A stretch of DNA of 64,000 nt from Nemertoderma westbladi (GCA_032718475.1 JAUCBJ010004144.1:124001-188000), one strand, 5' to 3'. Shown: positions 1 to 62,059, counted from the first letter of the stretch. A program made the numbers and translations. The notes: a model not told the origin generated them from the letters alone.

Positions 1-1874
1 GCTAAGGTAATAATTAGAGTACCGTAAACTATTCACGCTGAGTGGTTATTTGAATTAGCGGGCAATAAGCTAGATCGCAGTATTCAGTACGCAAAACGCA
101 TTAGTAATTTGCTGGCCTAAAGCCAGCCGCAGACAAGTTTAGTCCCACTATAGGTATTAGCCCAAATAAACACTGTACCGATTTGATTATTTAAATATTC
201 TCGCATTCACACATTCCGTTAGGGAAACCCAGTATTCGCGATTAGAAAGGACGTAGGCATTGGCGTACTTTAACAGTAAGATTAGGCCATAAGAATATAC
301 TCTGAGTGTAAGACCTCTCACACTCGTCTTAAGTCAGCTTAGGGAGTCAATTCGGGTTTGTTGTTTTGGTTATTCCCGCGTGGCTCATATATTCGAACAG
401 TTAGCTCTCTATCGAGTAATTGGTAGAGAAAGGAACAAGAAATTAGCAGGAGCCATAGAAAATTAGTAAAACATATTAGCGGACGGTAGGCGAGCGCCAT
501 CCAACGGTAAGTAGCGGTTTTGTATTTAGCAACCCCTTACATTAGCAATAATACGCTCCTGATTGCCCTGTCTAATAAATAGAGCAGTTTTGTGTCTTTA
601 TTGGTTAGGCCGGGGTAGTTTGTTTAACAGTATATGTGTACAAGCTGATCATTTCTACTTAGTTACCATAGTCTATATTTCTATTTATATTATATATTAT
701 ATTATATATTCAGTATATTTGTGCTTGCTGTACTCTAGTTAATTGACTTGTGCAGAAATGAAATTGAATTTTTGGGTTCAGTCGACAGGAAATTGAGCAG
801 ATATTAAACTTTTTGTTTAACGAATAATTCAATTTGATATGTAATAATGTATTTAATATGTTTAATGTTAAACAAAAAATTTAATGTGATTTATACTTTA
901 TAGTGCTGTTTTAGAATTTGTAAATTTTGGTTCGTAAATCTGATTACTTTTGTGATTTTTCCTCTTTTTCTTTAATTGAAATTGTGCTGTGATTGATTGC
1001 AGGTAATATAAATCATTATTGTCGTTTATTTTTGGTCCAAAATAGATATACATTTACTTATTTATTACATAATAACTATATAAAATCCTACATTATATTA
1101 TTGTGCTATTTATGTCTGTCTAACTGTACGTGCATAATTATTTCTTATTCACTGTACGATAATAACAATAATAATAGACTTACCGTATTTTAGTAATTTA
1201 GTATTTTTGTATTACTGTATGTGCATTTGTAATCCTCTTCACTGTAGATAGTGACAGCGGTGGAATTCCATTGTCTTTATATGTGAACATGGAGGAGGGT
1301 AGTACCCTTATGTATCACATAGGAGCGGGATTGAGTGTACAGTAGGAATTGAATTCCACTTGGAACCCACAAGTGAGACAATTTTTAAAAAATTATTAGA
1401 CAAATCCATTTAGTTGGATTTAAATTTAAGAAAAATGATTCTCCAGTGAATGCGAATTCTAGAATACAGCTAGTTAAAAATTAAAATTGGGGAAGACAAG
1501 AGCGGATGGAAGGCTTGCGAGCCTACCGATAAATTTTTTTGGAAAAAGAAAATCGGCCTTGTTCTACGTAGTCGTGTCTACTATTATTTAGACCGAATTA
1601 ATTCTCGACTGAATTATTTTTATTGGGAAAGTAGTTTGGGAAATTAAAAGGTGAGTATTTTAGACTCGCGGCTAGTTTACCCGGAATTCGTTTTTTATCG
1701 GCACAATTATTTGGATTAGGAGCCAGTGCGAAATCACGCGAACCCGAAGTCATTAGGCAAATGGGTTTGGGTTTTAGAGCAAAGTTGAGCCAAAAGCCGA
1801 CAAACTCTAAGTCACCTCACATCTAACCTCTGTTTGTGCTTCCTCTAGTAGAAACACTACATATACAGGGATTC

Positions 1875-2591
1875 ACGCAGGAACAGGAGCACCAGGCACC
1901 GTTTAATCGTTATGGAGCCAAAACTTTAACGTGTTTGGAGTGGAGAGTATGGCTAGGAGTACAGCCAAGCTCGCTAAATCCAAGACGGATCCAAACATCA
2001 CGCGACAGCGATTGGACGCTTATAACAAAAGAGCGGAGGAGTTACGTGCGGAGTTCAAAGCGTTGTACCCCTACGATGCGTTATGCGACGCCAGTGAAAT
2101 TTGCGAGGATCCAGACACGGAGATACGCCGATTATATCATACGCTGCAATTTTTGACGGAAAACGAACCCTTGCCTGCAGCCAGGGATGAATATGAAGGA
2201 ATACGAGAAAGGCGAGATCGAGGAGTTCGGCGGAAGGCTCGCGAGCCTACCATTTTACTGGATATCCCACGATCAAACCAAACCTAAGTAGATGACACCC
2301 ATGCTCTTCGATAGTATCACCTTTGCTCAGCGTTTGTCGCAGAGACTACAGATACCTCATGTCGAGATGACGCAAGAACCTCGGCCCCATCCTACTAAAG
2401 CGGTAGTACCAGTCGCGAGACCAACCAGATATTTATATTTGGATATTATATTTGGGTATTTATATTTGGATATTATATTTGGGTATTTATATTTGGATAT
2501 TATATTTGGTTATTTATATTGGACGTTACGTTTGGACGTTGGTTTTGGAGGAGCGAGATATAGAAAGGAAGGCTTGCGAGCCTACCGTTAG
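1875..2591 (+). pseudogene. Deleted/frameshifted copy of accessory ORF3
   Basis: MARSTAKLAKSK..EIRRLYHTLQFLT..PLPAARDEYEG and AQRLSQRLQIPHVEMT match ORF 43034-44080. Two large internal deletions correspond to ~43288-43660 and ~43886-44305. Confidence 0.9.
2430..2522 (+). repeat. 24-bp tandem repeat (YLYLDIIFG x3) at a deletion junction
   Basis: tatttatatttggatattatatttgg repeated three times; single copy in the intact element near 44308-44333. Confidence 0.85.
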
Positions 2592-30046: not shown

Positions 30047-30183
30047 TGATAAATTATTTCACTATAAGGTATCATTTGTAGTTTAACTTTAACGTAAAAA
30101 CTTTTGAAAATCCGACGTATTTTGAGTAAGTTATAGTAATGTAATATTGCCTATTCATATTGTACACATAAAACCCTTAGGTA

Positions 30184-30263
30184 CTCTCGTGGCGTAGAGG
30201 TCAGATGGTTAAGGCGTTGGTTACATTACAGATAGGTTACGAGTTCGAATCCCGGTCGGGAAA
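30184..30263 (+). other. tRNA-like Pol III A/B-box module in U3 (also ~45005-45084)
   Basis: tggcgtagagg..ggttaaggcg..gagttcgaatcccggtcgggaa; the 3' part resembles the eukaryotic tRNA-Glu end (GGTTCGATTCCCGGTCAGGGAA). Confidence 0.6.
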
Positions 30264-30308
30264 TTTGTATTTTGAGGCCATTTATTTTCGTTTGGTGCTA
30301 ATTAGTGG

Positions 30309-30556
30309 ACCAATGAGAAGCGTACAACGTAGCGAATAATGAGCCAGGCCAATCATAGGGCATAAATTATCTTATTGCTCAAATGTGAGGCAGTGGAAAA
30401 TTCTGCTAGGATTCCATGTCCCAGATTAGTGTAAGGGCCGGATTACGTTGAACGATGAGCTGGGCCAATCATAGGGCACAAAGCACTTTATTGCTCAAAT
30501 ACGAAGCTGTGGAAAATTCTGTTTAGTTTCCATGTGCGATATTTAGTATAAAAAGG
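30309..30556 (+). promoter_or_regulatory. Putative LTR Pol II promoter: CCAAT boxes in a duplicated ~115-bp module plus TATA
   Basis: accaat ~30309; ggccaatcataggg at ~30347 and ~30463; gtataaaaagg ~30547. The sister LTR has gtatataaagg at ~3716. Confidence 0.65.
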
Positions 30557-33311
30557 CCGGTTTGCCTTCGGTTATTATTCTTCTACACACCCTTAATGTT
30601 AGATTCAGATTCTCTTAGTAATTGTGATCTCTCTCTCTCTGTTAGTTTATTTCGGTTTCTTGTTGAAACTTTGTTTGATAAATCATTTTGTAAAACTGTA
30701 AATATACTGCAAATTCCTGAACGTGTTTTTTCTTTGGTCCAACTTGGGACAGCCAAACATCAGGAGGATGGCAGCCTAGACCGTTAGGCCGTAAGCAACG
30801 CAGGGAAGAGATGTCCACAACACGCTAGCGCCCACATTGGATTGACCGCGCACCCCCCTTTGCCCTTCGAAATACTCGACTTGCCATGCAGCGCCGCTTT
30901 GTGAGAAAAGTAAGACTTTGTTCGACGCCCTTGCCTGCCGTAAGACCTATAGATCAGGGTAAGCGTGACGCCGTCCTGGACGCCGCAAATTTAGGATCAA
31001 ATAATTATATTCAGACAGAAACACCCCCCCCCCCTTTGTCATGTCCTACGAACCCCTGGGTTAACCTGTACTTCCTACAGGTAGGCTACGAACTATTGCC
31101 ATTCGTCAGTACGCGAGTACATATTAGGTACGGACAGCATATGTTCCATAATTTAGTGATTCGTAGTACTGACTGTTTGGTACCGGTTCGCTTTGTAGAA
31201 CGTACATTAGTACCCCCCCCCCCCCCCCCTGTCTGGAGTTAGCTATTTGATCAGGCAAGGAGTATTTCTGCTACCGGCACACTGCTTGGCCTAGGGAGGT
31301 TTATTAATATCCTACCGCGCCTTGCCACGTACTGATAGGTATTGCTGCTAACTACCGCAGCAACAAAATTCTAGAATTAAATTAGTATACCAGATCAGCT
31401 AACGTACGGTAGCGATTAACCCCTATTTCTTATCTTACAACCAGAATCTGGTATTAGTGCCGATCACGGGTGTAGTTACTAACACCGTGGTTGCCCATTG
31501 GGTTGTGGATAGGAAGGAGAGAGCTTTGACGTCATTTGTGAGTATAAAGTTCTACAAAACGCGACTAGTTTATTTTAGTAGCTAGCGCACGGTATCATTT
31601 TAGTCAGAAAATCACTAAAACCTAGTAAAGGAATTACACGAAATTGTTTTATTTGTAACACACCCACACACACACGCCCTAAAACATACTGCCCTTAGAG
31701 TTCTACTAGCTATAGCGCACTATACATTATTTTAGGTAGAAGTTATCTGTATTTGTAAAATTAGGATCTGATATTTAGTTGCGGCAATAAGGAGTATTTC
31801 ACTTTCGTTATTAAACTGTTGTTTTCTGTCCAGCAGTATTGTTACATTTAGGCCTGACCCTTTAGACTGATTTCGTACAGGGGGATCAGTTATTGTTACA
31901 TTTAGGCACGACCCCTTTTCGACTGATTTAGGACAGTCAGTGTTGTTACGCTAGGTCTGTTAACCCACTAGCTCGTATATAAACCATATAAATCACACCG
32001 CGGCAAGTTACTGTATTTAGGACTGTCAGTGATAGTTAGGATTCGCTGCGCGGGGATTGTTTTCCCGTGAGTTTGGTCTGTTACTGTAACTGTACATCTG
32101 CCTCACCGGTTAGAGGACAGGTATCCTTTTGTCTAGTACGTAGGCATTAGACTCGCTCACGTACATAGAATAGATACTAGGCTCTGTTCCTCGCCAGTAG
32201 TCGTTTGTGTACTGTATCTGTTCATTTAGATATCCTGGACTGGGATTTGTTATCAGATACTGTACGAGCCCGTATACATTACTAGAGTCTCATAGTAAGA
32301 TACATCGTTACTAGGATCTGGTAAGCGGTATACTACTGGACCCTTACAGTAGGAAGTATTTATTAAATATCTCAACCGAAAGTGCGTGCGCATTTAAAGT
32401 GAGATATAGATAAATATCTGTTAGCTATTGTAAGTAGGAGATATTTAAAAATTAAGGTTAGTAAATTTAGTAATTTAGAACGTCCCCTGCTTCAGTAGGC
32501 TTTTAGGGTAGCTAGTACTTTCGTATTTAATATTTGACTAGCTAACAGTTAGTTTGTAGCACTTTGTTTTACGCCGTGTGTGTGCGGTGTTACCTTTCGG
32601 TACTTGAAAAGGTACATAGGGTTTAAAGACCAATTTGTATCGGTACCTAGGAAGATTTTTCGTAAGCGTAGAAGTAAAACTCTCACATTCGACCTTTTCA
32701 GGACTCAAGGACTCATTTCTGGACCGCTTCGAGGATTAGACCGCTTTTCGCAAAGTTTGGGAGACAATAAATTCGGCCGCGCCGCCGAAAACGGAAAGAC
32801 CCACGTCCGGTTTGTATTTGGGAATTTGTACGACTGGAAGATTAAAGGAACGTAAGTTTTACGACTCGCGTCGTTCAAACTTAAGAAAGCACAGTAGTAC
32901 TCAAAATTTGTGGGTTTCACTGTCTATTAGTAGTGATGTTGGTTCTTATTTTCCCGTTAGACGTTGCTGTTTAGCCTATTATTTGTATTGTTGATCTATA
33001 TTTTGGTAACGTATACCGTTATCTCATTTATTCGTACAAATTTAGCCGGTAGGCTAGATTACTACTTATTTTATTGTATACCTTTGTTAGTTTTATTCGT
33101 ACCGGTTAGGGTATATATATGATATATATATATATCAAGGTAAGTTTGACATTTGTACATTTCGACATTTTGACATTTCGACATTCTGACTTGTTGATTT
33201 ATTTGTACCGGTTAGGGTATATATATACTATATATACCAAGGTAAGTTTGACACTTCAACATTCAGACACTTTGACATTTTATTACCCGTACTTGACGTA
33301 TATAATAAGAC

Positions 33312-36300
33312 ATGAGTGACACACCCCATTCGACGAGATACCCACCTACCGACTATGACTCGTGCGACCCGGACAGATCGACAGTAGACGAACCAAGAAG
33401 GAGAACCCGAGATTCCACCGATGTCACACCGCTTGCGTCGCCTGTACCCCGAATGGAAATACCGGAAGCCGCAACGCGTGGCGACGGCAGAATCGAAGAT
33501 TTCCTTACCGTCCCGCAGACTAGATCGCGGGAACCGGACATGGTAAGTTCGACTGGAAGCCAGGAGAACGTTATTAGAAGTATAGGAGGACACATGGCCC
33601 AGATTACTCGGAACCTCAGAGAAGGTTTTCGCGTTTTACGCGAGTTAACCGCCCCGATGTCGAGATACGAGTTCTACACCTTACAGGTAAGGATAGAAGG
33701 TAGGGTACATGCCTCCGTTGATAAACTTAAAGGTTTACACGAACTTGCAGAGTTGCGTGGCGACAACTTTACGCAGGTAAAGATAGTAGACAAATTGGTA
33801 AGTGCGAGAGAAAGCATTATCCAGTTTAAGTCGGTGATAAGATTGGCTCAACAGGAGCAGTTCGACCAACTGCTAGGTGAGTCAGTTTCGGACGCGTTGT
33901 TACAACCCGAAGAGGAAGAAGAACTCTACTGCTTGGACGGAAGGTTGGAAACGCTCACCAATTTTCTTCGTAGATGCGGCGTACCGATCGACGAACCAGA
34001 AGTCGAACCGCGAGGGACGACGGAAGTTCTCACTACAGAAGGCTCGCGAGCCTACCAGCATCCACCTCTGGATAGATCGTTCGTTAGCGTACGGAGCGAC
34101 GTTGGCAATGTTGGCGACGTTAGTAGAACAGCGTCTGGAATTACTCGACAACAACAGGAGGTCGCACGCCGACAACAAGTCGCTGAGGAAGAAACACAAC
34201 GACAATTGGCGCAGATTGCCATCAAAGGAGAAAGACAGCGTAGAGAAGACGTAGCGAAACTTGCGAAACTTCAAGCGCAGGCTGAGTTCGAAGCATCAGA
34301 AATGTGGAGACTGGAGGAGGACTTAGCGCGAGAAGCGGCCGCGGCGGCAGCAGCCGACGAGTTAGCCTGACAGGCGGCAGCTGACGAGTTAGCATGACAG
34401 GCAGCAGCCGACGAGCTAGCACGAGTTGCGGCGGTAAACGCAGCTGAGTTAGCACGGAAGAAGGCAGCATCCGACGCTCGCGCCAACTTGGAGGCGCGAC
34501 AAATAAACGCTCGTTTAGCTATACAGGAAGCGGAGTTAGCGGCACAACAACAAGTAGCGGATCGACGCGAAAGAGAGATGCAACTACAGTTCGAACTGAA
34601 TCGTAGATCGCGCGAGGCAGCGAACGCGCAAGCGGACCTCGAACTCGACGCGAGAGATAGATCTATAAGATCGCGAACTGGACACGACTTGTCTGCCCTG
34701 GATCGCATGGAGACTCGATATCGCGGAATACAGAAGCGAATCGAGGAAGGAAGTGTGGGAGCGATAGATCGAGGAGAGGAGTTCGTCGAGGATTACTGTA
34801 AACGTTTTCCCCAAGTTATTCCTATGCTCAAACCCACGACTCCGATAAAACCGGTCTTTGTTACGAAACCTAAGGAAATAACGCCTGTGCGTTCGACGCA
34901 AGGCAACAGGTTTGTTGTGACGGAAATACCGCAACCTAGGGCGACTTCATTGCCAATTTTAGCAGGTAACATAACTAGTCCACCTACAGTAAGTCGTAGT
35001 TTACTTGTGGAGAGAGACGAACCTGCGTTTATGACAGTAAAACAGGTGAGTAAACCATTACAAGTTGAACCTGTAACGCGCTGCGCGAACCCAGTCATTT
35101 ATAAACCTACAGTAGAGCTTAACTCCGATGTTTTTACTAGACCTCTCACCCAATGTTTAACGAGACCTACGACTTCGTGGAAGGCTTGCGAGCCTGCCGA
35201 ACAATGGAGAGCCGTAGATCTCAGACCACAACGAACTCGACCAAGAATAATACGCCGGACGCGAACCCGCCAACCACCTTATCCGGACGACAGCGATTCA
35301 TCCAGTGACTCGGAGTCGACGGAACGGGAAATATTCCGTACTGGAGCGGCAGCGGCAGCGGATTACAAACGGGAGGAACGATCGACGAACCCCTATATCG
35401 ATAATCCTCCACGAGAAACACCCCAACAGAAACCCACGTTGCAACCAGCGGAAGCGATCAGCACCAACAGACTCGCCAAAATAATGCGACCTGTAACGGA
35501 CCGACTAGCTCAACTCGAAGAACGACTTGAAGAGCAACCGTCGGATCGATCTCGAACCAGCGTGGAGTTGGAACAACCTAGACAACATCGACCACCGAGG
35601 AGAGAACAGGAGACTAGACGGACTCCGACACATCAAGAAGAAGATCCCGTTAATAATTCCTACCGACGAACAACGCGCGGAAGGGAGCGACTGGACGACG
35701 CCACCGAACAGGGACGCGGACAGTTGGATTTGGTTAGCGAGATTGCGAAATTCGCGGCTAGACACGGATTACCGGCACAGCAACCGCCAAAGTTCTCTGG
35801 CAACGCGAAACACTGGCGCACACTGGTAGACTACGTAGAGTCCCAGATCGCTAAGTGTGCTTTCACCTCGACGGAGAAGTTTAATTACTTGCTCCTAGTC
35901 CTGTCTGGTGAGCCGAATCGATTAGCGGAAACCTTTATTGGTGTTCCCGATGCCTTCGAGTTGGCTTACGACCGTTTGTATTCGATTTACGGCGGTAACG
36001 TAGCCATGGCTAAATCCATCATTGAAGACCTCTGCAGAGGAGGCAACATTTCGAAACCGATCGACCTTTTACGACTCGCGGACGAAATCAAGAACGCTAT
36101 AGGGACTTTACGATCCATTGGACAACTAGAGTATGCTAACGCACCGACGGTTCTCATTCGAATAATCGGTCGACTTCACCATCGACTACGAAGAGAATGG
36201 CGACGCATCGAGTACCAACGCGAAGAGGCCGGAGGGTTATTAAAACTCACCGATGTCTATCAACTGATTTCACGGGAGGCCGTGATCGAGACTCGATCGA

Positions 36301-39300
36301 ACTATACCGATCACCATATCGCGGCGGAAGGGATAGCTATTTCTGCGCCGAATCGGACTAAACCGTTTCCGGCGAACGCGAAAGCCGTTACTTACACCAC
36401 CCCTACTGAGACTTCTAAAGTTCTGACGCCTATCGGCACCACGCAGCCACGACAACAGTTGCCGGCGGACTTTATGGGATGTTCATACTGCGAGCGGAAC
36501 GGCAGAAACCATAGCGGACATAAACTACGTGGATGTCGCGCTTTTAATGAGTTAGGAATCGAGGAGAGGAGACTCCAAATCCGATCTCTAGATTCCTGTT
36601 GGAGATGTATGAAGCCAGGACACATCCGGAAGGATTGCCCGAGCGACGATACATGTTCTCTGTGTGGACGTAACCATGACGCGTTGCTTCACACAACCAG
36701 TCATACTCCGACCAGATGCTTTCGACGAGAGCATCCAGATAAAGCGGCTAGATGCGACGCGCTTTATAAGGAGCGTGCGCCGCGCGAGATCCGTACCTTT
36801 TATACCGACTGTATGGATCAGTCAGGATCATCGGACGAGGACGAGGAGGAAGACGACACTTTCTACGTGCATGCAGGTGAGGAACAGCCATTGATAACGC
36901 TCCTCACACAGAACCAACTGAAAGGGTTTAGCGTGATTCCTATAAAGATTACCGGAACCCGAGGGAGCAAGCGTATATACGCCATCTTAGACTCTGCGTC
37001 ATCGCATAGTTATGTCGACGAACAAGTAGCCGACGTAGTTACGGACATGAGTCAAGGTAAGACTGCTCAGTATACTGTAAGCAGCATGCATGGTAAGAGA
37101 GCGATCCCTGTGACGAGAGTAAAACTAACTTTAGACACTCTTCTTTCCAAAGCGGAACACAGCAAGGAGGAGCGCTCATTACTTCCGGTAAGAAATTTGA
37201 CCTTTGCAGCTACGAAGAACTTTAGCAACTTGCTCGGCCCTGTGCCAGAGCAATCACCGGAAGATCGTAAGTATTTCCGACACCTTGGAATACCAGAATG
37301 TCCTGTTAATTATCGTTCCATTGCGATGTTAATTGGGACAGACCAGTTTAACTTATATCAGGTATGGGAGACATGCCCATCTGTTATTACAGCGGGCAAC
37401 CCCTATGCATGTAGAACTCCCATAGGTTGGTATACTAGAGCACCAATACGTTCACTAGAGGTAAGTGACCAGGAGGACGACGTTTTGAGTACGTGTAGTT
37501 TATTGACTAACACGATAGATAATTCTCCTTCACACTCCTGTGGTCCAATTGTACGGACGGCACTACGACAGACTTGCGTCACTAATGCAGACGCCACCGA
37601 TACTGACGTAACCGATCTGGACACGACCATACGGACCTCTGACTTACAACTACTTGCAGTAGACCAGGTTGTATTGACTACTGAAGACCAAAGGGTTGTT
37701 GCCGTGGATGACTCGATGAACGAGGATTTTGGAAGGCTTGCGAGCCTACCGAAAAATCCGAAGGTCATTGACCCCACCCACCAGGCTTCGACACCGGTCG
37801 TTGATCTTGGAAGGCTTGCGAGCCTACCGATAGATCAAGAAGTTGTCAAACCGCCGCACGACGATTCAACGCCGACTAGTGACACCGGAAGGCTTGCGAG
37901 CCTACCAGACACATTGACACTAGCCACCGCAGCGGACGAAGACGTGGACGAGGACCATGGCGCAGTGCAAGCAGCGCTTGACCAACTGCTGACTGAACGG
38001 ACCATACAATGGTTGGAACAGGACTCAGCAGAACCCGGTAGTTACGAGACTGCTATGTCAGAACAGGAAAAACGGTCATTAAATATTATGAGAGATACCA
38101 TTCGCCAGACCGCGAATGGCCACTATGAGGTTGGTATGTTGTGGCGCAATGGACAACCTAAACTCGTTAACAATTACCCGCTTGCTTTGAGGCGACTCAA
38201 ATCAATAAGGCAGCGATTGTTGCGAGACGAGACAGCCCATATGCAATACAATGCACAACTTCAGACGTATCTCCAAAAGGGATACGCCATTAGGATGTTA
38301 AATCCCGAGGTAACCACAGACCAGACATATTACCTGCCACATCATTTTGTTCGACACCCGGACAAACCTGGCAAGGTGCGTGTAGTCAACGACTGCGCTG
38401 CGCTTTACCAAGGGATGTCTATGAACAGCGAACTGATGGACGGGCCGAATATGAATAATTACCTCATGGGAGTCCTAATGCGTTTTAGACAACGCAAAGT
38501 GGCTTTCACCTGTGACGTAGAGGCCATGTTTCACCAGGTTAAGGCTTTGGAGCGGGACAGGGACAGTTTGAGGTTTCTTTGGTATCCGGACGGAAACTTA
38601 CAACTTCCGCCAAAAACTTACCAAATGAAGGTAAGAGTATTCGGAGCCAGGGACAGCCCCAACTGCACCATGTACGCATTAAAGAAGACCGCATTGGACA
38701 GACGAGACCAATTAGACCCAGAAGTAGTTCGGACCGTGGAACGAGATTTCTACGTGGATGACGGCCTCAAGAGTTGTGACACCTTGGAGCGCGCTACAAC
38801 CGTAGCACACCAACTCCAGAATTGTCTCGCTGAGGGCGAATTTCACCTGACGAAGTTCGCTTACAACGAACCCGAACTGGTGAACTCATTTGACCCGACG
38901 GATCGCAGTGGAGGTGACTTAGACTTAGACCTAGAACCTCTGCCGACGACCAAAGTATTAGGACTTAGTTGGGACCCTAACACCGACAATTTTAGGGTAC
39001 GTGTAAGGTCCAATGACCAGACTAGACCTCTCACTAAGAGGACTTGCTTATCGACTATGAGTCGATTGTATGACCCATTGTGTTTCATTAGTCCAGTGAT
39101 CCTACACGCTAGGATCATACTCCGCAGCATTTGGCAAGCCGGACTGGAATGGGACGATCCCATCCCAGAAAAGTTAGCTGAGCGATGGAGGGACTGGGAA
39201 GCCCAACTGACATTCCTACAAGACTATACCATACCAAGGGTATACTTTCCTTTGCAAACCACCTTTCCTGCCGATTTAGAGCTTCACAGCTTTAGTGACG

Positions 39301-42182
39301 CTAGCAAGGATGGATTGGGGGTTACTTTATACCTTAGACGACAAGTGACATCGGACAGCTACGATGTATCTCTCGTTACTTCAAGGGCTAGAACAATGCC
39401 ATTGAAGTATATGACTGTACCTCGTGGGGAGCTGCAAGCCGGGACGATATCCACCGATATTGTCAGTCTAGTTCAACGCGAGCTGGAGGCTAACTTGAAG
39501 GTCACATATTGGACGGATGCGACGTTGGTACTTTGGTACATAAACAACGAAGCATTTGAGTTCAAGACTTTCGTAGCCAACAGACGGGCTGAAATATTAG
39601 ACCGGTCGCTCAAACAAGATTGGCGTCACTGTCTAGGGAAGCTGAACCCAGCTGACATCGCGTCACGGGGTATGCAACCGCTTGACTTTTGTAAACCGGA
39701 CAATAAATCCTTTTGGTTTAGAGGACCTGATTTCCTACAGCGACCATCAGACGAATGGCCACCGTTATTCGACGCGACAACCAACACCATACCAGAGGGT
39801 GCCGAGATAAAACTCGACAAGGTTGTCAAGTCTAAAGCGAAAGCCAACGCCAAGGTCAAGAGGAAAAAAGGACGGACGAAATCTGATGACCTGGACGCCA
39901 GACCTGACATTACGCCAGACGTCTCGCCAGACACTCGACCAGACGCTTGTACGAATCCTTCGCCGGATGTTCCGCGGGAGATTTCACCAGACGTTTCGCC
40001 GGATTGTTCACCAGATTACTCGCCAGACTATTCACCAGAAGAGACACCAGATTGTTCTCCGGATTGTTCGCCAGATTGTTTGATGGAACTCTCGACGGAA
40101 TGTCTACCGGACGTCTCACCAGACTTTCCACCAGACATCTCGACAGACTGTCCACCAGACTTTAGACCAGACTTTGAACCAGACTTTCTGACAGAAGTTA
40201 CGCTAGACAGACTTTGGGACCGACGACAGGACATTTCGCTGGAAGTTCCGCGCTATGTCTCACCAGACGTCTCACCAGACTGTTCACCAGACGCTTCACC
40301 AGACTGTCTACTAGACACTCCATTAGAAGAACCATTGGAGCGGACCTTTAGAGACTTACCAAATTTGACTTCTTTGGACGACGAAGGTGTGGCCACAGGG
40401 ATTACACTCCACTCGAAGAAGGTACTTGACTTACCTACAGGTAAACGTGTGACTAAGGTTAGGAAGCTTACAGGCTCACAGGAACACACTGGCACTGTAG
40501 AGTTGAAACCGTTACTGCCAGTCGACACATTAGGTGCGGACGGTAAAGGTAAGACCGTAGAGATTGACGTACTTGGGGACTCAGACAAACCTACCGGAAG
40601 GCCCGTGGGCCTACCAAGTCCAGACAAGTATCTACCCTACGACTACACCTTACCCGATGACGTCACCAACACTTACGTTGACAGGATAGTGAACCTAACT
40701 AGATCATGGACTGACGCGTGCCGCAAGTTAGCATGGCTCAAACGTTTGAGACAATATGCCAGAGGCAAACGCGACTTTCCTAGAAGACTTACCTTAAAGG
40801 AAATTGGCCACTGTGAAGTTGATATCATTCGTCATTATCAATTGCGATATTTCGCACGAGAGTTCACAGCGATCAAACAAGGTAAACAGATTAAGTCTTC
40901 ACCGATTTTGAGTTGGAGTCCGATTATTTACCGGGGCTTACTTTGTCACAAGTCCAGACTCCAAAACATCGACTTTGCACTTGACTTTAGGTATCCTATC
41001 ATCATACTGCAACACCATGAGTTACAGCGCGCTATGATACTGGACGCACATGTACAACTCAAACACGTAGGTAGACACCACTGTCTATCACACTTACGCT
41101 CGAGGTTTGTACTGATTAGACCTAGTAAGGCACTGAGTTCGGTAACACGGAACTGTATTATTTGTAAGAAGGTGCACGCGAGGATAGGACACCAAGAAAT
41201 GAGTGAACTACCACTAGCTAGATTACAGGCGTTTAGACCCCCTTTCACTGAGACAGGGATAGACTGTTTTGGACCCATAATCGCGAAACGCGGAAGGGTA
41301 CAGGTAAAACGTTGGGGATTGATCTTCACTTGCATGGCCAGCAGAGCTGTCCATATAGAGCGAGTGACAGACTTTACCACCAATGCCTTTATCCTAGCCT
41401 TACGGCGATTTATCGCTAGACATGGATTGGTCAAATCCATATACTGCGACCAAGGGACAAACTTTGTGGGTGCACGGAACGAAATAACCAGAGCTTTGAG
41501 AAAATTGGACCAAAACCAGATTTCCGAGGAACTACGTCCTCACCGTATTGTTTGGTTTTTCAATACTCCAGACAGTCCGTGGAGAGGCGGCGTTTGGGAA
41601 AGGCTGATTGGCTCAATAAAGACAGCTATGGCTAAAGTCGTACCGACGCAACACATCTTGACAGACGACCAATTGACGACGTTACTAATAGAAATCGAAG
41701 CAATCTTAAATACTAGACCGATCGCTTTGATCCCAGACAATAACGACGTACAGTTTGCCTTGACACCAGCGCACCTGCTTATGCAGGCGCCGACGACACT
41801 GTTGCCCATTTCGGTACCCGTTGATAGTGACGGATACGGCAACAAGGCTTGGAAAATCACTCAATTACTTGCAAATAAATTCTGGGAAATATGGCAGAAA
41901 TATTATTTGCCCTCTATTTCGACCAGAACTTCTTGGTATCTAAATACCCGATGTTTAAGACGTGGTGACCATGTTTTATTAGCTGAAGCTAATCTGAAAA
42001 GACGGTTTTGGCTGACTGGAGTCATTTTGACCACGCACCCTACATCTGGTGTAGTGAGGACAGTTACTGTAAGAACTATCGACGGACGTACCGTAGATAG
42101 GCCTGTACAACGTCTCGTACTTCTTGAGGAGACTAGAAACGAGACGGGAGACTACAAATCTCCACCCAATATTAGTAAATAG
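33312..42182 (+). CDS. gag-pol: BEL/Pao Gag-Pol polyprotein (2,956 codons in one frame, interrupted by TGA at 34368-34370 and 34395-34397)
   Basis: ORFs 33312-34370 and 34488-42182 share a frame. Gag core KFSGN ~35790; Cys-His knuckles CSYC/CWRC/CSLC 36480-36692; protease ILDSAS ~36984; RT YLPHH ~38331 and YVDD 38751; RNase H FSDAS 39291 and NPAD 39645; integrase H..H..CxxC, DCFGP 41262, DQGTNF, GGVWE. Confidence 0.95.
34344..34427 (+). repeat. 27-bp tandem repeat x3 (AAADELA*/R) carrying the two gag stops
   Basis: gcagccgacgagttagcc-TGA-cag / gcagctgacgagttagca-TGA-cag / gcagccgacgagctagca-CGA-gtt. Confidence 0.9.
37731..37906 (+). repeat. 78-bp (26-aa) periodic repeat in the PR-RT linker, each unit starting with the 20-nt hairpin (GRLASLP)
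   Basis: ggaaggcttgcgagcctacc at 37731, 37809 and 37887. Confidence 0.9.
39898..40316 (+). repeat. 12-bp coding minisatellite encoding xSPD tetrapeptides between RNase H and integrase
   Basis: Repeated tcgccagac/tcaccagac: ISPDVSPDCSPDYSPDYSPEETPDCSPDCSPDC..VSPDVSPDCSPDASPDC. Confidence 0.9.
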
Positions 42183-42679
42183 ATGTGGGACCTTAATTGG
42201 CCGCCACATAGACCTACTGTATTTTAGTTATTTGTATTTGTTTAACTGTACGTGCATTTGTAATCCTCTTCACTGTAGATAGAGACAGCGGTGGAATTCC
42301 ATTGTCTTTATACGTGAACATGGAGGGTAGTACCCTTATGTATCACATAGGAGCGGGATTGTGTGTACAGTAGGAATGGAATTCCACTTGGAACCCACAA
42401 GTGAGACAATTTTTCAAAAATTATTAGACAAATCCATTTATTTGGATTTAAATTTAAGAAAACGATTCTCCAGTGAAAGCAAATTCTAGAATACAGCTAG
42501 ATAAAAATTAAAATTGGGGAGGACAAGAGCGGATGGAAGGCTTGCGAGCCTACCGATAAAATTTTTTTTGGAAAAAGAAAATCGGCCTTGTTCTACGTAG
42601 TTGTGTCTACTATTATTTAAACCAATTAATTCTCGACTGCACTATTTTTCTTGGGAAATGTAGTTTGGGAAATTAAAAG

Positions 42680-42877
42680 GTAAGTATTTTAGACTCGCGG
42701 CTAGTTTACCCGGAATTCGTTTTTTATCGGCACATTTTTTGGATTAGGAGCCAGTGCGAAATCACGCGAACCCGAAATCATTAGGCAAAATGGGTTGGGG
42801 TTTAGAGCAGAGTTGAGCCAAAAGCCGACAAACTCTAAGTCACCTCACATCTAACCTCTATTTTGTGCTTCATCTAG
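42680..42877 (+). other. Candidate spliceosomal intron upstream of ORF3
   Basis: AAG|GTAAGT donor, CTAAC branch point 42851, pyrimidine tract, CTAG| acceptor. The sister copy keeps AAG|GTGAGT (1651), ctaac and tcctctag (1848). Confidence 0.55.
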
Positions 42878-42919
42878 TAGAAACGTAATGATATGTAACC
42901 ACATATATATTCGTATACG

Positions 42920-44408
42920 ATGGCGGAGAAGATGTATAAAGAGTTACGTCAAGGGTTTACGCAAGAACAAGAGCACCAGGCGCCATTCAATCGTTATGGA
43001 GCTAAAAACTTTAGTGTGTTTGGAGTTTAGAGTATGGCTAGGAGTACGGCCAAGCTCGCTAAATCCAAGGCGGACCCAAATGTTACGCGACAGCGGTTGG
43101 ACGCATACAACAAAAGAACGGAGGAATTACGCGCGGAGTTCAATGCGTTATATCCCTACGATGCGTTATGCGACGCTAGCAACATTTGCGAGGATCCAGA
43201 CACCGAAATACGCCGATTGTATCATACGCTGCAATATTTGACGGTAAACGAACCCTTACCTGCAGCTAGAGACGAATTTGAAGGAATGCATCTTTATAGA
43301 CGCGCTCGAGGAGCGGATCCAGAGACCAAGGACGCGTTCTCCATATACAAACTGTTTTATAAATGTGGAGCGTGTATGCGCGAGCAAGACAACGCGATTC
43401 CTATGCGGTTGAACTCGGAGAACCCCGAGCCAATATTAGCGCGATGTTCATACCACCAAAGTCTACGTTACCAAGAAGGCGGATACCCTTTAACAAATCC
43501 GTATCATTCATTTAAAATGAGTGGACCGAACGCGGGTGAGATCGTTATTTACGAACCCAAATTAGTCGAACCAGACGTCTACAGCATGGTAGTGGACGAG
43601 TCTAATAAGTCGACACAAGAGAAACGGGAAGCTTTGAGCCTCTACAGGGCGTACAAGGCGTACGAGAAAGGCGAGATCGAGGAGTTCGGAGGAAGGCTCG
43701 CGAGCCTACCATTCTATTGGATATCCCACGATCAAACCGAACCCAATGAGATGACACCCGAGCTCTTCGATAGTATCACCTCTGCTCAGCGTTTGTCGCA
43801 GAGACTACAGATACCTCATGTCGAGATGACGCGAGAACCTCAGCCCCATTCTACTGGAGCGATAGTACCGGTTGCGAGACCAACTAGTTTTCCTATTAGT
43901 ATACCGACCCGGAAGGAGACAACTTACGAGATCCCTATAGTTGAACACCCGGAGATCATCTCGAACCTGGATTTCCTCCCATCGGTTACCTTCGGTGATG
44001 TGTTAGAGTCAACCGAGTTGCGTAAAGTAATAGTTCAAAAAAATCGTACGCAACGTGCCTCCCCATATCACGGACTTTAAGGAAGTGGATCGCGCGGGGA
44101 CGGATATCGCACCTTGTATCTTGCGAGGATATCTGACGAAAACGATTCGATTATGGATCGGAGTTGGAACGTTTGAAACCGACACCGATATCGCGACCAA
44201 TTGGACCGGTAAACCTATTAGTTTCGATGATGAGAAGTCGATTGGGAGAATTTGGAACCCAGCCGACGATTTACTCGACGATTGGGACGTGACTAGCCGA
44301 TCTCTGAATATTATATTTGGGTATTTATATTGGACATTATGTTTGAATGTTGGGTTTGGAGGAGCGAGATATGGAAGGAAGGCTTGCGAGCCTACCGTTA
44401 GCAATTAG
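42920..44408 (+). CDS. Accessory ORF3, unknown function, putative CxxC..CxxH zinc-binding protein (reconstructed ~495 aa; intact segment 43034-44080)
   Basis: 348-aa ORF. In-frame upstream extension MAEKMYKELRQG.. is blocked by TAG 43028-43030 (GAG in the sister copy). Removing one A from the A7 run 44037-44043 fuses it to 44055-44408. Homologue at 62060-63642 on the minus strand. Confidence 0.75.
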
Positions 44409-44867: not shown

Positions 44868-47160
44868 TGATGAATTATTTCACTATAAGGTAGCATTTGT
44901 AGTTTAACTTTAACGTAAAAACTTTTGAAAATCCGACGTATTTTGAGTAAGTTATAGTAATGTAATATTGCCTATTCATATTGTACACATAAAACCCTTA
45001 GGTACTCTCGTGGCGTAGAGGTCAGATGGTTAAGGCGTTGGTTACATTACAGATAGGTTACGAGTTCGAATCCCGGTCGGGAAATTTGTATTTTGAGGCC
45101 ATTTATTTTCGTTTGGTGCTAATTAGTGGACCAATGAGAAGCGTACAACGTAGCGAATAATGAGCCAGGCCAATCATAGGGCATAAATTATCTTATTGCT
45201 CAAATGTGAGGCAGTGGAAAATTCTGCTAGGATTCCATGTCCCAGATTAGTGTAAGGGCCGGATTACGTTGAACGATGAGCTGGGCCAATCATAGGGCAC
45301 AAAGCACTTTATTGCTCAAATACGAAGCTGTGGAAAATTCTGTTTAGTTTCCATGTGCGATATTTAGTATAAAAAGGCCGGTTTGCCTTCGGTTATTATT
45401 CTTCTACACACACTTAATGTTAGATTCAGATTCTCTTAGTAATTGTGATCTCTCTCTCTCTGTTAGTTTATTTCGGTTTCTTGTTGAAACTTTGTTTGAT
45501 AAATCATTTTGTAAAACTGTAAATATACTGCAAATTCCTGAACGTGTTTTTTCTTTGGTCCAACTTGGGACAGCCAAACATCAGGAGGATGGCAGCCTAG
45601 ACCGTTAGGCCGTAAGCAACGCAGGGAAGAGATGTCCACAACACGCTAGCGCCCACATTGGATAGACCGCGCACCCCCCTTTGCCCTTCGAAATACTCGA
45701 CTTGCCATGCAGCGCCGCTTTGTGAGAAAGGTAAGACTTTGTTCGACGCCCTTGCCCGCCGTAAGACCTATAGATCAGGGTAAGCGTGACGCCGTCCTGG
45801 ACGCCGCAAATTTAGGATCAAATAATTATATTCAGACAGAAACACCCCCCCCCCCCCTTTGTCATGTCCTACGAACCCCTGGGTTAACCTGTACTTCCTA
45901 CAGGTAGGCTACGAACTATTGCCATTCGTCAGTATGCGAGTACATATTAGGTACGGACAGCATATGTTCCATAATTTAGTGATTCGTAGTACTGACTGTT
46001 TGGTACCGGTTCGCTTTGTAGAACGTACATTAGTACCCCCCCCCCCCTGTCTGGAGTTAGCTATTTGATCAGGCAAGGAGTATTTCTGCTACCGGCACAC
46101 TGCTTGGCCTAGGGAGGTTTATTAATATCCTACCGCGCCTTGCCACGTACTGATAGGTATTGCTGCTAACTACCGCAGCAACAAAATTCTAGAATTAAAT
46201 TAGTATACCAGATCAGCTAACGTACGGTAGCGATTAACCCCTATTTCTTATCTTACAACCAGAATCTGGTATTAGTGCCGATCACGGGTGTAGTTACTAA
46301 CACCTTGGTTGCCCATTGGGTTGTGGATAGGAAGGAGAGAGCTTTGACGTCATTTGTGAGTATAAAGTTCTACAAAACGCGACTAGTTTATTTTAGTAGC
46401 TAGCGCACGGTATCATTTTAGTCAGAAAATCACTAAAACCTAGTAAAGGAATTACACGAAATTGTTTTATTTGTAACACACCCACACGCCCTAAAACATA
46501 CTGCCCTTAGAGTTCTACTAGCTATAGCGCACTATACATTATTTTAGGTAGAAGTTATCTGTATTTGTAAAATTAGGATCTGATATTTAGTTGCGGCAAT
46601 AAGGAGTATTTCACTTTCGTTATTAAACTGTTGTTTTCTGTCCAGCAGTATTGTTACATTTAGGCCTGACCCTTTAGACTGATTTCGTACAGGGGGATCA
46701 GTTATTGTTACATTTAGGCACGACCCCTTTTCGACTGATTTAGGACAGTCAGTGTTGTTACGCTAGGTCTGTTAACCCACTAGCTCGTATATAAACCATA
46801 TAAATCACACCGCGGCAAGTTACTGTATTTAGGACTGTCAGTGATAGTTAGGATTCGCTGCACGGGGATTGTTTTCCCGTGAGTTTGGTCTGTTACTGTA
46901 ACTGTACATCTGCCTCACCGGTTAGAGGACAGGTATCCTTTTGTCTAGTACGTAGGCATTAGACTCGCTCACGTACATAGAATAGATACTAGGCTCTGTT
47001 CCTCGCCAGTAGTCGTTTGTGTACTGTATCTGTTCATTTAGATATCCTGGACTGGGATTTGTTATCAGATACTGTACGAGCCCGTATACATTACTAGAGT
47101 CTCATAGTAAGATACATCGTTACTAGGATCTGGTAAGCGGTATACTACTGGACCCTTACA
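44868..47160 (+). repeat. 3' LTR (2,293 bp)
   Basis: tgatgaattatttcac..ggacccttaca followed by TSD gaatt. Confidence 0.96.
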
Positions 47161-50100
47161 GAATTATTGTATCACATATTAACTTCGGCTCCAGCCGCTT
47201 TGGCAACACGATGAAACTATAATTAATATTATAGAACACAACAATATTAACAGGGAGATATGCTACTTATCTCTTCATTCTGAGAGCCTCAAAAAGGGGG
47301 TGTTCTGACACAATCAAAATGCATCCATCTCCAGGGGAAAGACGAAGCAAAGAACAGCTGATTACTTCTATAAATGTAAGTGTTACCTGCTCTTTTGACT
47401 TTCATTTAATATTGTCTATCTCTTGGAGTGGGTTAGAAGTCATGAATATGAAAATCGATGTCGTTTTTTGTAAAAAATCAGAGGAGATTTTAATAAATTA
47501 ATGCTGAAAAACACCAAGGATTTTGACATGGCTTTAATACTCATTATATTCATGAAATAGCTGAGAAATTTGAGGTGAATTATTGTATCACATATTAACT
47601 TCAGCTCCAGCCGCTTTGGCAATACGATGAAACTATAATAAATATTCTAGAACACAACAATATTAACAGGGAGATAGGCTACTTATATCTTCACTCTGAG
47701 AGCCTCAAAAAGGGGGTGTTCCGACGCAATCAAAATGCATCCATCTCCAGGGGAAAGACGAAGCAAAGAACAGCTGATTACTTCTATAAATGTAAGTGTT
47801 ACCTGCTCTTTTGACTTCCATTTAAGATTGTCTATCTCTTGGAGTGGGTTAGAAGTCATGAATATGAAAATCGATGTCGTTTTTTGAAAAAAATCAGAGG
47901 AGATTTTAATAAATTATTGCTGAAAAACACCAAGGATTTTGACATGGCTTTAATACTCATTATATTCATGAAATAGCTGAGAAATTTGAGGTGAATTATT
48001 GTATCACATATTAAGTTCGGCTCCAGCCGCTTTGGCAATACGATGAAACTATAATACATATTCTAGAACACAACAATATTAACAGGGAGATAGGCTACTT
48101 ATATCTTCACTCTGAGAGCCTCAAAAAGGGGGTGTTCCGACGCAATCAAAATTCATCCATCTCCAGGGGAAAGACGAAGCAAAGAACAGCTGATTACTTC
48201 TATAAATGTAAGTGTTACCTGCTCTTTTGACTTTCATTTAAGATTGTCTATCTCTTGGAGTGGATTAGAAGTCATGAATATGAAAATCGATGTCGTTTTT
48301 TGTAAAAAATCAGAGGAGATTTTAATAAATTATTGCTGAAAAACACCAAGGATTTTATACTCATTATATTCATGAACTATTTGAGATATTTAATACGATG
48401 AAACTATAATAAATATTCTAGAACATAACAATATTAACAGGGAGATAGGCTACTTATATCTTCACTCTGAGAGCCACAGATAGGGGGTGTTCCGACGCAA
48501 TCAAAATTAATCCATCTCCTGGAGAAAGACGAAGCAAATAACAGCTGATTACTTCTATAAATGTAAGTGTTACCTGTTCTTATGACTTTCGTTTAAGATT
48601 CTCTATCTCGTGGAGTGGGTTAGAAGTTATAAATATGAAAATCGATGTCGTTTTTTGTAAAAAATCAGAGGAGATTTTAATAAATTAATGCTGAAAAACA
48701 CCAAGGATTTTGACATGGCTTTAATACTCATTATATTCATGAAATAGCTGAGAAATTTGAGGTGAATTATTGTATCACATATTAACTTCGGCTCCAGCCG
48801 CTTTGGCAATACGATGAAACTATATTAAATATTCTAGAACACAACAATATTAACAGGGAGATAGGCTACTTATATCTTCACTCTGAGAGCCTCAAAAAGG
48901 GGGTGTTCCGACGCAATCAAATTCATCCATCTCCAGGGGAAAGACGAAGCAAAGAACAGCTTATTACTTCTATAAATGTAAGTGTTACCTGCTCTTTTGA
49001 CTTTCATTTAAGATTCTCTATCTCATGGAGTGGGTTAGAAGTTATAAATATGAAAATCGAGGTGGTTTTTGAAAAAAATCAGAGGATATTTTGATAAATT
49101 ATTGCTGAAAAACCCCTAGGATTTTGACATGGCTTTAATACTCATTATATTCATGAAATAGCTGAAAAATTTGAGGTGAATTATTGTATCACATATTAAC
49201 TTCGGCTCCAGCCGCTTTGGCAACACGATGAAACTATAATTAATATTATAGAACACAACAATATTAACAGGGAGATATGCTACTTATCTCTTCACTCTGA
49301 GAGCCTCAAAAAGGGGGTGTTCTGACACAATCAAAATTCATCCATCTCCAGGGGAAAGACGAAGCAAAGAACAGCTGATTACTTCTATAAATGTAAGTGT
49401 TACCTGCTCTTTTGACTTTCATTTAAGATTGTCTATCTCTTGGAGTGGGTTAGAAGTCATGAATATGAAAATCGATGTCGTTTTTTGTAAAAAATCAGAG
49501 GAGATTTTAATAAATTAATGCTGAAAAACACCAAGGATTTTGACATGGCTTTAATACTCATTATATTCATGAAATAGCTGAGAAATTTGAGGTGAATTAT
49601 TGTATCACATATTAACTTCGGCTCCAGCCGCTTTGGCAATACGATGAAACTATAATAAATATTCTAGAACACAACAATATTAACAGGGAGATAGGCTACT
49701 TATATCTTCACTCTGAGAGCCTCAAAAAGGGGGTGTTCCGACGCAATCAAAATGCATCCATCTCCAGGGGAAAGACGAAGCAAAGAACAGCTGATTACTT
49801 CTATAAATGTAAGTGTTACCTGCTCTTTTGACTTTCATTTAAGATTGTCTATCTCTTGGAGTGGGTTAGAAGTCATGAATATGAAAATCGATGTCGTTTT
49901 TTGAAAAAAATCAGAGGAGATTTTAATAAATTATTGCTGAAAAACACCAAGGATTTTGACATGGCTTTAATACTCATTATATTCATGAAATAGCTGAGAA
50001 ATTTGAGGTGAATTATTGTATCACATATTAACTTCGGCTCCAGCCGCTTTGGCAATACGATGAAACTATAATACATATTCTAGAACACAACAATATTAAC

Positions 50101-53100: not shown

Positions 53101-53970
53101 ATAAATTATTGCTGAAAAACACCAAGGATTTTGACATGGCTTTAATACTCATTATATTCATGAAATAGCTGAGATATTTGAGGTGAATTATTGTATCACA
53201 TATTAACTTCGGCTCCAGCCCCTTTGGCAATACGATGAAACTATATTAAATATTCTAGAACACAACAATATTAACAGGGAGATAGGCTACTTATATCTTC
53301 ACTCTGAGAGCCTCAAAAAGGGGGTGTTCCGACGCAATCAAATTCATCCATCTCCAGGGGAAAGACGAAGCAAAGAACAGCTTATTACTTCTATAAATGT
53401 AAGTGTTACCTGCTCTTTTGACTTTCATTTAAGATTCTCTATCTCATGGAGTGGGTTAGAAGTTATAAATATGAAAATCGAGGTGGTTTTTGAAAAAAAT
53501 CAGAGGATATTTTGATAAATTATTGCTGAAAAACCCCTAGGATTTTGACATGGCTTTAATACTCATTATATTCATGAAATAGCTGAAAAATTTGAGGTGA
53601 ATTATTGTATCACATATTAACTTCGGCTCCAGCCGCTTTGGCAACACGATGAAACTATAATTAATATTATAGAACACAACAATATTAACAGGGAGATATG
53701 CTACTTATCTCTTCATTCTGAGAGCCTCAAAAAGGGGGTGTTCTGACACAATCAAAATGCATCCATCTCCAGGGGAAAGACGAAGCAAAGAACAGCTGAT
53801 TACTTCTATAAATGTAAGTGTTACCTGCTCTTTTGACTTTCATTTAATATTGTCTATCTCTTGGAGTGGCTTAGAAGTCATGAATATGAAAATCGATGTC
53901 GTTTTTTGTAAAAAATCAGAGGAGATTTTAATAAATTAATGCTGAAAAACACCAAGGATTTTGACATGGG
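47161..53970 (+). repeat. ~416-bp satellite array, block 3
   Basis: Same monomer family and variants; local 2,017-bp period (48627/50644; 47856/49873). Confidence 0.96.
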
Positions 53971-62033: not shown

Positions 62034-62059
62034 CCGCTCCCAGAAAATGGGATTTAAGT

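What the first reader, a model, noticed from the sequence alone, without database searches (positions are those of the whole stretch)
34037..44396. 20-nt hairpin GGAAGGC-TYGCGA-GCCTACC dispersed 9 times along the element, independent of reading frame
Seen at 34037, 35179, 37731, 37809, 37887, 40596, 42535, 43691 and 44377, plus 1508, 2232 and 2567 in the deleted copy. Always on the sense strand; none noticed in the LTRs. It folds as GG/CC, an A.A mismatch, an AGGCT/AGCCT stem and a YGYG loop. It is read in all three frames (EGSRAY, WKACEP, GRLASLP) and also lies in non-coding DNA. Copy 40596 (AGGCC-CGTG-GGCCT) has a compensatory T-A to C-G swap. Gag-pol copies sit only in inter-domain linkers, and the deleted element retained all three post-pol copies. 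Inference: a multivalent cis RNA signal (distributed packaging/export sites, or kissing loops), possibly bound by Gag or ORF3.
Basis: partly seen in the sequence, partly recalled or inferred. Interest (0 to 1): 0.88.

Follow-up and report, generated by a model that had tools for sequence, protein, structure and literature searches.

The report
Retrotransposon stamped with nine identical hairpins
A jumping gene of the BEL/Pao kind carries the same 20-letter fold-back sequence nine times along its length, inside and outside its genes, unchanged while neighbouring letters drift; it likely marks the element's RNA for one of its own proteins, but neither the partner nor the job has been tested.

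Summary
Observation confirmed: 9 same-strand copies in a 17.1-kb BEL/Pao LTR retrotransposon and 3 in a deleted relative (chance 0.04). They are 7 independent sites, since three form an old 78-nt triplication. New evidence of selection on the 20 nt themselves: in the triplication the motifs are 20/20 identical but the spacers only 19-28/58; across family contigs 0 of 14 variable sites fall in the three motifs (P 0.008-0.03), while 9 of 14 flank changes alter amino acids; deleted versus full copy differ at 0/60 motif but 128/1743 flank sites (P 0.011). The motif is family-specific: 0 of 78 other BEL loci (58 families) carry it or any dispersed hairpin family. RNA over DNA is only favoured (one compensatory pair, wobble-tolerated variants, fixed purine mismatch, absence from LTRs); covariation is thin and expression unshown. 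Best reading (0.55): a repeated RNA tag bound by an element-encoded protein, likely the orphan ORF3 or Gag, for export or packaging of full-length RNA. Main rival: a VANC-like DNA site (0.23). No precedent in 10 literature searches. The scan noted a different hairpin array in a Perkinsus retroelement.

The parts
30047..32348 (+). 5' LTR (TG...CA), 99% identical to the 3' LTR; carries no hairpin copy
44868..47160 (+). 3' LTR; preceded by a purine tract; element flanked by a 5-bp target duplication GAATT (30042-30046, 47161-47165) within a 416-bp satellite
33309..42182 (+). BEL/Pao gag-pol frame (DUF1759, zinc knuckle, protease, RT, Peptidase_A17/RNase H, integrase, DUF5641); broken in this copy by in-frame stops at 34368-34370 and 34395-34397
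43031..44080 (+). ORF3, orphan protein with a CxxC...CxxH stretch; an in-frame stop lies just upstream (43028-43030) in this copy
34037..34056 (+). hairpin 1 (frame offset 2, EGSRAY; terminal pair lost; loop CGCG)
35179..35198 (+). hairpin 2 (offset 1, WKACEP; A.G instead of A.A mismatch)
37731..37750 (+). hairpin 3a, protease-RT linker, unit 1 of a 78-nt triplication
37809..37828 (+). hairpin 3b, unit 2
37887..37906 (+). hairpin 3c, unit 3
40596..40615 (+). hairpin 4, RNase H-integrase linker; compensatory C8-G13 pair, loop CGTG
42535..42554 (+). hairpin 5, non-coding spacer between pol and ORF3
43691..43710 (+). hairpin 6, inside ORF3 (loop CGCG)
44377..44396 (+). hairpin 7, non-coding 3' region; tandemly duplicated in at least one family contig
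   Evidence: table 5c
1508..1527 (+). counterpart of hairpin 5 in the internally deleted copy
2232..2251 (+). counterpart of hairpin 6 in the deleted copy, unchanged although ORF3 there is deleted and stopped
2567..2586 (+). counterpart of hairpin 7 in the deleted copy

Best explanation
The 20-nt motif is a conserved, family-specific signal placed at seven sites along a BEL/Pao retrotransposon, and it likely acts as an RNA hairpin that an element-encoded protein (most likely the orphan ORF3, otherwise the Gag zinc knuckles) would bind to mark full-length element RNA for nuclear export or packaging. Shown: position, copy number, strand, frame independence, linker placement, conservation above the flanks, restriction to this family. 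Inferred: that it folds and works as RNA; that copies spread by short copying events into tolerant linkers and were then held by selection; that repeated sites every 0.7-2.7 kb let many protein copies coat the 14-kb transcript cooperatively; that deleted copies keep the tag so as to be handled in trans; who binds it.
For: Conservation beyond protein: 20/20 identity among the three triplicated motifs against 19-28 of 58 in their spacers; 0 of 14 variable sites (at least 2% of depth, two DNA runs of two studies) in the 60 motif bases of a 281-nt stretch, P 0.008-0.03 by window choice, with 9 of 14 flank variants non-synonymous; 0/60 against 128/1743 between deleted and full copy, P 0.011; combined P 0.002. 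Identity stops sharply at the hairpin ends. For RNA: compensatory T8-A13 to C8-G13 at 40596; one diverged contig has G at 13 and T at 20, both G.U pairs on the sense strand and A.C on the antisense (table 7, one contig); the purine-purine mismatch is kept in 12 of 12 window copies, always in one orientation; the loops fit YNMG (11 of 12) or YNUG (1 of 12), the classes seen in the protein-bound enterovirus oriL domain d loop (PMC5633025 passages); none lies in the LTR promoter. For ORF3 as partner: both motif and ORF3 are absent from relatives (motif 0 of 78 BEL loci; ORF3 0 hits among 1.84 billion representatives); ORF3 has a CxxC...CxxH stretch; a Cys-rich accessory protein, CERV, exports Cer1 genomic RNA (PMC10309623 abstract and passages).
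Against: Covariation rests on one compensatory event; G1 to A at 34037 breaks a sense-strand pair; the loop variants TGCG and CGTG are also what CpG decay of CGCG gives, and the host appears to methylate (CpG o/e 0.60-0.63 in satellite and an old BEL fragment). Flanks do not extend the stem beyond chance on the sense strand (mean z +0.38). Same orientation is also expected from copying during reverse transcription and is seen for DNA-level VANC motifs (PMC5735166 passages). None lies in the 5' leader, where Ty1/Ty3 cis signals map and most internal sequence is dispensable (PMC4974528 passages); two sites lie in the part a spliced ORF3 mRNA would keep. The lay-reads table is depth-weighted, covers 3 of 9 motifs and one run may be the window's source sample.
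Confidence: 0.55

Rival explanations
1. The motif is a double-stranded DNA site (a near-palindrome with a central CpG core) for ORF3 or a host factor, spread along the gene body to keep the element transcribed inside satellite heterochromatin, in the manner of VANC anti-silencing.
For: Near-perfect 20-bp palindrome; family-specific, multi-copy, one orientation and partly amplified by tandem duplication, as for VANC motifs (PMC5735166 passages; triplication; duplicated 3' copy); both window copies abut or lie in satellite DNA; signs of CpG methylation; orphan ORF3 with a possible zinc site.
Against: None in or near the LTR promoter; 7 of 9 in coding sequence, whereas VANC motifs are mainly non-coding and 8-9 nt; symmetric T-A to C-G swap and wobble-type variants are predicted by strand pairing, not by base reading in duplex DNA; ORF3 has no Pfam hit.
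Confidence: 0.23
2. The hairpins are RNA-RNA contact points: each can pair with its twin on the second genome copy, zipping the two packaged RNAs in register for dimerisation and template switching, with no specific protein.
For: All three loop variants stay self-complementary on the sense strand (with G.U), and the predicted intermolecular duplex (-30.7 to -34.9) beats two hairpins (-12.0 to -19.2 kcal/mol); palindromes and GACG loops mediate retroviral and Ty1 dimerisation (PMC516450, PMC4974528 passages).
Against: Any hairpin gains energy as a duplex; pairing alone would not hold 20 bases invariant nor keep a destabilising A.A mismatch; identical sites would pair out of register and within one molecule; known dimer signals are few and 5'-proximal.
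Confidence: 0.12
3. Non-adaptive: a small palindrome that is copied and homogenised by template switching during reverse transcription, tolerated in linkers, or a tiny parasitic insertion.
For: Same orientation; sits where insertions are tolerated; some copying process must have spread it.
Against: Identity ends sharply at the hairpin ends with no shared flanks; the mismatch is not corrected to a perfect palindrome; no decayed copies; no consistent target duplication; loss of one 78-nt unit is rare (depth about 20-110 against tens of thousands); none of the 15 joints shown (133 not shown) runs motif to motif.
Confidence: 0.07

Closest known systems
Multiple dispersed packaging signals of ssRNA viruses (MS2, STNV, HBV pregenome; PMC6281560, passages)
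   Same: Many short stem-loops along coding and non-coding RNA sharing one recognition motif; cooperative protein binding is the proposed logic.
   Different: There the stem-loops share only aspects of a motif; here 20 nt are near-identical and evidently copied; host is an LTR retrotransposon; binding is untested.
CERV of Cer1 (PMC10309623, abstract and passages) and Rev/RRE-type export systems (recalled)
   Same: LTR element with an accessory Cys-containing protein beyond gag-pol that could act on unspliced RNA.
   Different: Cer1 is another element group; no RNA target element turned up in my term search of that paper; ORF3 has no detectable homologue; RRE is one large element, not nine small ones.
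VANC/VANDAL anti-silencing motifs (PMC5735166, passages)
   Same: Family-specific motif in many copies, one orientation, spread by tandem duplication, with an element-specific extra gene.
   Different: VANC motifs are 8-9 nt duplex-DNA sites mainly in non-coding DNA of a plant DNA transposon; this is a 20-nt fold-back, 7 of 9 in coding sequence.
Phage Mu Com-binding hairpin of mom mRNA (PMC6483171, parts 1 and 3 of 6 and passages)
   Same: By hand, motif positions 2-20 match the printed native 19-mer at 15 of 19 with one compensatory stem swap and the same layout; that RNA also folds as hairpin or duplex and is read by a small zinc finger.
   Different: A post-hoc resemblance, first recalled then checked; the Com core CC(N)2-3GAG is not met; no Com-family hit for ORF3; most likely convergence or chance.
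Retroviral dimer signals: palindromic DIS, GACG tetraloop hairpins (PMC516450, passages); Ty1 PAL (PMC4974528, passages)
   Same: Short hairpins with self-complementary loops in a dimeric-genome element.
   Different: Those are one to three sites in the 5' region; here none is in the leader and nine are spread along the body.

Membership tests
BEL/Pao LTR retrotransposon (host element) | Peptidase_A17, DUF1759, DUF5641, zinc knuckle; order PR-RT-RH-IN | tested here: met
   best homologues 38-44% identical, all with PF05380
BEL/Pao LTR retrotransposon (host element) | two LTRs TG...CA with a short target-site duplication | tested here: met
   99% identical 2.3-kb LTRs, 5-bp duplication
Dispersed packaging signals | multiple stem-loops with a shared motif dispersed along the genome RNA | tested here: met
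   (predicted folds only)
Dispersed packaging signals | specific binding by the capsid protein that promotes assembly | not testable with these tools
   needs EMSA/CLIP and assembly assays
Rev/RRE- or CERV-like export system | accessory protein from a spliced mRNA | tested here: inconclusive
   ORF3 lies after pol; donor-like sites at 33138 and 33240; no RNA holder on record
Rev/RRE- or CERV-like export system | export of unspliced RNA depends on protein and element | not testable with these tools
   needs cell assays
VANC-type anti-silencing motif | family-specific, multi-copy, one orientation | tested here: met
VANC-type anti-silencing motif | short (8-9 nt) motif mainly in non-coding DNA | tested here: not met
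   20 nt; 7 of 9 in ORFs
VANC-type anti-silencing motif | protein binding to duplex DNA with local loss of methylation | not testable with these tools
   needs ChIP and methylome
Retroviral DIS / GACG dimer hairpins | self-complementary loop | tested here: met
   prediction only
Retroviral DIS / GACG dimer hairpins | located in the 5' leader | tested here: not met
   first copy about 3.5 kb after the TATA-like box, inside gag
Mu Com-binding hairpin | CC(N)2-3GAG in the loop and a Com-family zinc finger | tested here: not met
   motif has C-T where Com needs C-C (by hand); no Pfam or PHROG support for ORF3
Any Rfam family | score at the gathering threshold | tested here: not met
   only sub-threshold chance matches

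The most novel reading that the evidence does not exclude
This BEL/Pao family has evolved a private protein-RNA barcode system: an orphan zinc-binding ORF3 protein recognises a 20-nt hairpin that the element has copied into every tolerant linker of its own genome, in any reading frame, so that full-length and non-autonomous RNAs are coated end to end and licensed for export or packaging. It would be the RNA counterpart of VANC motifs and a ready orthogonal hairpin-protein pair.
Probability: 0.3. Interest if true: 0.88.

Novelty: new variant of a known kind. Interest (0 to 1): 0.72.

Why it matters
How LTR retrotransposons pick their own RNA for export and packaging is unresolved; a review states that the cis signals are not clearly defined and that scattered sites may contribute (PMC4974528 passage). 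Here the scattered sites are visible as nine near-identical units with natural variants, which makes a distributed-signal model directly testable by binding and reporter assays. It also shows a cis signal overriding coding sequence in three frames.

Tried and rejected
No genome is held, so the genome-wide scan outside elements was not possible. Flank-extended stems: suggested by 37731 and 37809, not general (2 of 9 sites, equal on both strands): rejected. Deleted copy sparing all hairpins: P 0.15: not evidence. CpG sparing in motifs: 0 of 3 against 5 of 19 flank CpGs: too few. Mini-transposon footprint: no consistent flanking duplication. Motif peptides in 120 BEL homologues: none. Relatives of the protease-RT linker among shorter proteins: none. 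Viral contigs: 0 motif matches, no BEL relatives. Prokaryote genomes: 2 exact matches in 596 Gb against 2.2 expected: chance, not a REP-like repeat. ORF3: no hits in Pfam, PDB sequences or the two large protein searches; PHROG E 0.18 only; atlas scores under 0.9; single-sequence model pLDDT 35.6, too poor for a fold search. Expression: no RNA holder listed; run X5 is only guessed to be RNA; no evidence either way. SECIS, internal polypurine-tract and BANP/Kaiso/p53-site readings were considered from recalled consensus only and dropped for poor fit. Covariance modelling was not run: 12 near-identical copies give no power. No complex prediction was sent.

Full report
Observation. A degenerate 20-nt pattern with up to 3 mismatches finds 12 sites at exactly the stated coordinates, against 0.04 expected from 100 shuffles. 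Extending to 6 mismatches adds nothing, so there is no tail of decayed copies and none in the LTRs, the satellite or the other elements of the window. The minus-strand matches are the same sites, because the motif is a palindrome except for positions 3/18 and the centre. Seven of the nine copies of the full element are in ORFs, in all three frames. Three copies (37731, 37809, 37887) are one 78-nt triplication, leaving seven independent sites, spaced 0.7-2.7 kb apart.

Host element. Pfam places the long frame in the BEL/Pao group (Peptidase_A17 E 1e-39, DUF5641, DUF1759, zinc knuckle). The LTRs (30047-32348, 44868-47160) are 99% identical, with a 5-bp target duplication inside a 416-bp satellite. 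The gag-pol frame of this copy is broken by two stops near 34370-34397, and a third ORF follows pol. The best of 688 homologues are 44% identical in the RT region; the named ones come from echinoderms, corals, a hemichordate, a tunicate, a fish and an arachnid, so the host is not identified. No genome is held. The family is highly repeated and variable in DNA runs of one coded organism.

Placement. In an alignment with 24 homologues the five P0001 sites have identity 0.00-0.08 and occupancy 0.78, 0.42, 0, 0, 0. But 43% of that frame is equally unconserved, so linker placement is expected of any tolerated insertion and is modest evidence. Each long linker, the pol-ORF3 spacer, ORF3 and the 3' non-coding region holds a site; the leader and LTRs hold none.

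Conservation. (a) In the triplication the motifs are 20/20 identical, the spacers 28, 19 and 23 of 58. (b) Laying contigs of 2 of the 7 listed runs on 37680-37960 gave 14 variable positions at 2% of depth or more, none in the 60 motif bases; P 0.032 for the whole stretch, 0.008-0.016 without its poorly covered ends; 9 of the 14 change an amino acid, so the protein is not what holds the motif. Limits: depth-weighted contigs, three motifs only, one run may be the source sample. The whole-element lay with 4 runs showed 40 of about 1100 variant rows, none in a motif, which has no power. (c) Deleted versus full copy: 0 of 60 motif and 128 of 1743 aligned flank bases differ, P 0.011; (b) and (c) combine to P 0.002. 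(d) Identity falls to background at the hairpin ends. Loss of a triplication unit is rare, and one contig shows a duplicated 3' copy.

Specificity. Of 560 BEL-like stretches confirmed in metagenome contigs, the best 78 loci were kept; they form 58 families. None has the motif on the sense strand within 5 mismatches (three antisense matches at 4-5 mismatches, single per locus), and none has a dispersed 12-mer or hairpin family beyond what LTR or whole-element duplication gives: 47 loci have 1, 30 have 2, one tandem locus has 4, against 8 for the window element under the same filter. Many of these loci are partial and all are distant, so close sister families remain untested. No motif peptide occurs in the 120 listed homologues. 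Viral contigs give 0 matches and prokaryote genomes 2, as chance predicts. Rfam has no match.

RNA or DNA. The canonical form folds at -7.6 kcal/mol on either strand, so energy is neutral. For RNA: the compensatory pair at 40596; a single diverged contig with G13 and T20, both G.U on the sense strand; loop variants that stay self-complementary on the sense but not the antisense strand and fit the YNMG/YNUG tetraloop classes; a purine mismatch never corrected in 12 of 12; absence from the promoter. Against: G1 to A at 34037; the loop variants equal CpG decay products in a host that appears to methylate; flanks do not extend the stem; only 4 of 5 informative single changes favour the sense strand. 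RNA is therefore favoured, not shown. No RNA holder is on record, which says nothing on expression.

Partner. ORF3 is an orphan by every search run and its model is unusable; it has a CxxC...CxxH stretch visible in the sequence. That two family-specific novelties occur together suggests, by inference only, that ORF3 reads the hairpin. The Gag knuckles are the alternative reader.

Mechanism. Most likely (0.55) the element tags its full-length RNA with repeated hairpins that an element-encoded protein binds cooperatively for export or packaging; deleted copies keep the tag and are served in trans. Rivals: a duplex-DNA anti-silencing site (0.23), in-register RNA-RNA dimer contacts (0.12; predicted duplex energies), non-adaptive homogenisation (0.07).

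Comparison with the literature. Ten full-text searches found no report of near-identical hairpins dispersed through the ORFs of an LTR retrotransposon; the library lacks most subscription papers, and no supplements were read. Seen: passages of PMC5735166 (VANC), PMC5633025 (oriL tetraloops), PMC516450 (dimer linkages), PMC6281560 (dispersed packaging signals), PMC4974528 (Ty1/Ty3 packaging); abstract and passages of PMC10309623 (CERV); parts 1 and 3 of 6 and passages of PMC6483171 (Com). It works most like dispersed packaging signals or a CERV/Rev-type tag, but membership in any of these is not established: the binding tests cannot be run here, and it fails the VANC (non-coding, short), DIS (5' leader) and Com (CC core) features. 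The 15-of-19 match to the Mu Com hairpin is a post-hoc curiosity. An earlier scan note (e1-7243490; untested here) describes a tandem hairpin array in the non-coding part of a Perkinsus retroelement: a related idea on other DNA with a different layout.

Verdict. A real, non-random, selectively maintained and family-specific signal; new variant of a known kind; interest 0.72. The function is inferred, and the assay on a working element is left open.

Noticed in passing
window 30183-30262 and 45004-45083 (both LTRs; also about 3460-3540): tRNA-like stretch in the U3 part of the LTR with what look like RNA polymerase III A and B boxes (recalled consensus) and a TAC triplet in the anticodon position; ARAGORN and Rfam call nothing. 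It is followed by two 97-nt repeats with CCAAT boxes and a TATA-like box at 30547.
   Followed up: partly
window, bases flanking each hairpin: The base 3' of the motif is a purine in 9 of 9; the 5'/3' flanking pair is T/G four times and C/A three times, never Watson-Crick (Fisher P 0.029, post hoc). Could be an isosteric wobble closing pair or two copying lineages.
   Followed up: partly
window 34340-34430: Two in-frame TGA codons fall in a tandem AADELA repeat of gag, both followed by C; decay or programmed readthrough could not be told apart.
   Followed up: no
window 43028-43030: In-frame stop just upstream of ORF3; the contigs of three DNA runs read this codon differently, so it seems private to this copy and ORF3 is probably longer in others.
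   Followed up: partly
window 39890-40310: RNase H-integrase linker holds a low-complexity SPD/SPDC peptide repeat; both pol linkers are hundreds of residues longer than in 24 homologues.
   Followed up: partly
window 43287-43654: The ORF3-internal deletion of the deleted copy also appears as a joint in three runs (43286 to 43661), pointing to an amplified non-autonomous subfamily.
   Followed up: partly
window 5565-30046 and 47161-55070: 416-bp satellite array, with an orientation switch near 53975; the full element is inserted in it and the deleted copy abuts it, which may reflect targeting.
   Followed up: no
window 1-1170: The 5' part of the deleted copy has no BLAST similarity to the full element; origin unknown.
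   Followed up: no
window 55900-64000: A decayed second BEL element (Peptidase_A17 at 59909-60904) and further retroelement-like fragments; none carries the motif or a dispersed hairpin family.
   Followed up: partly
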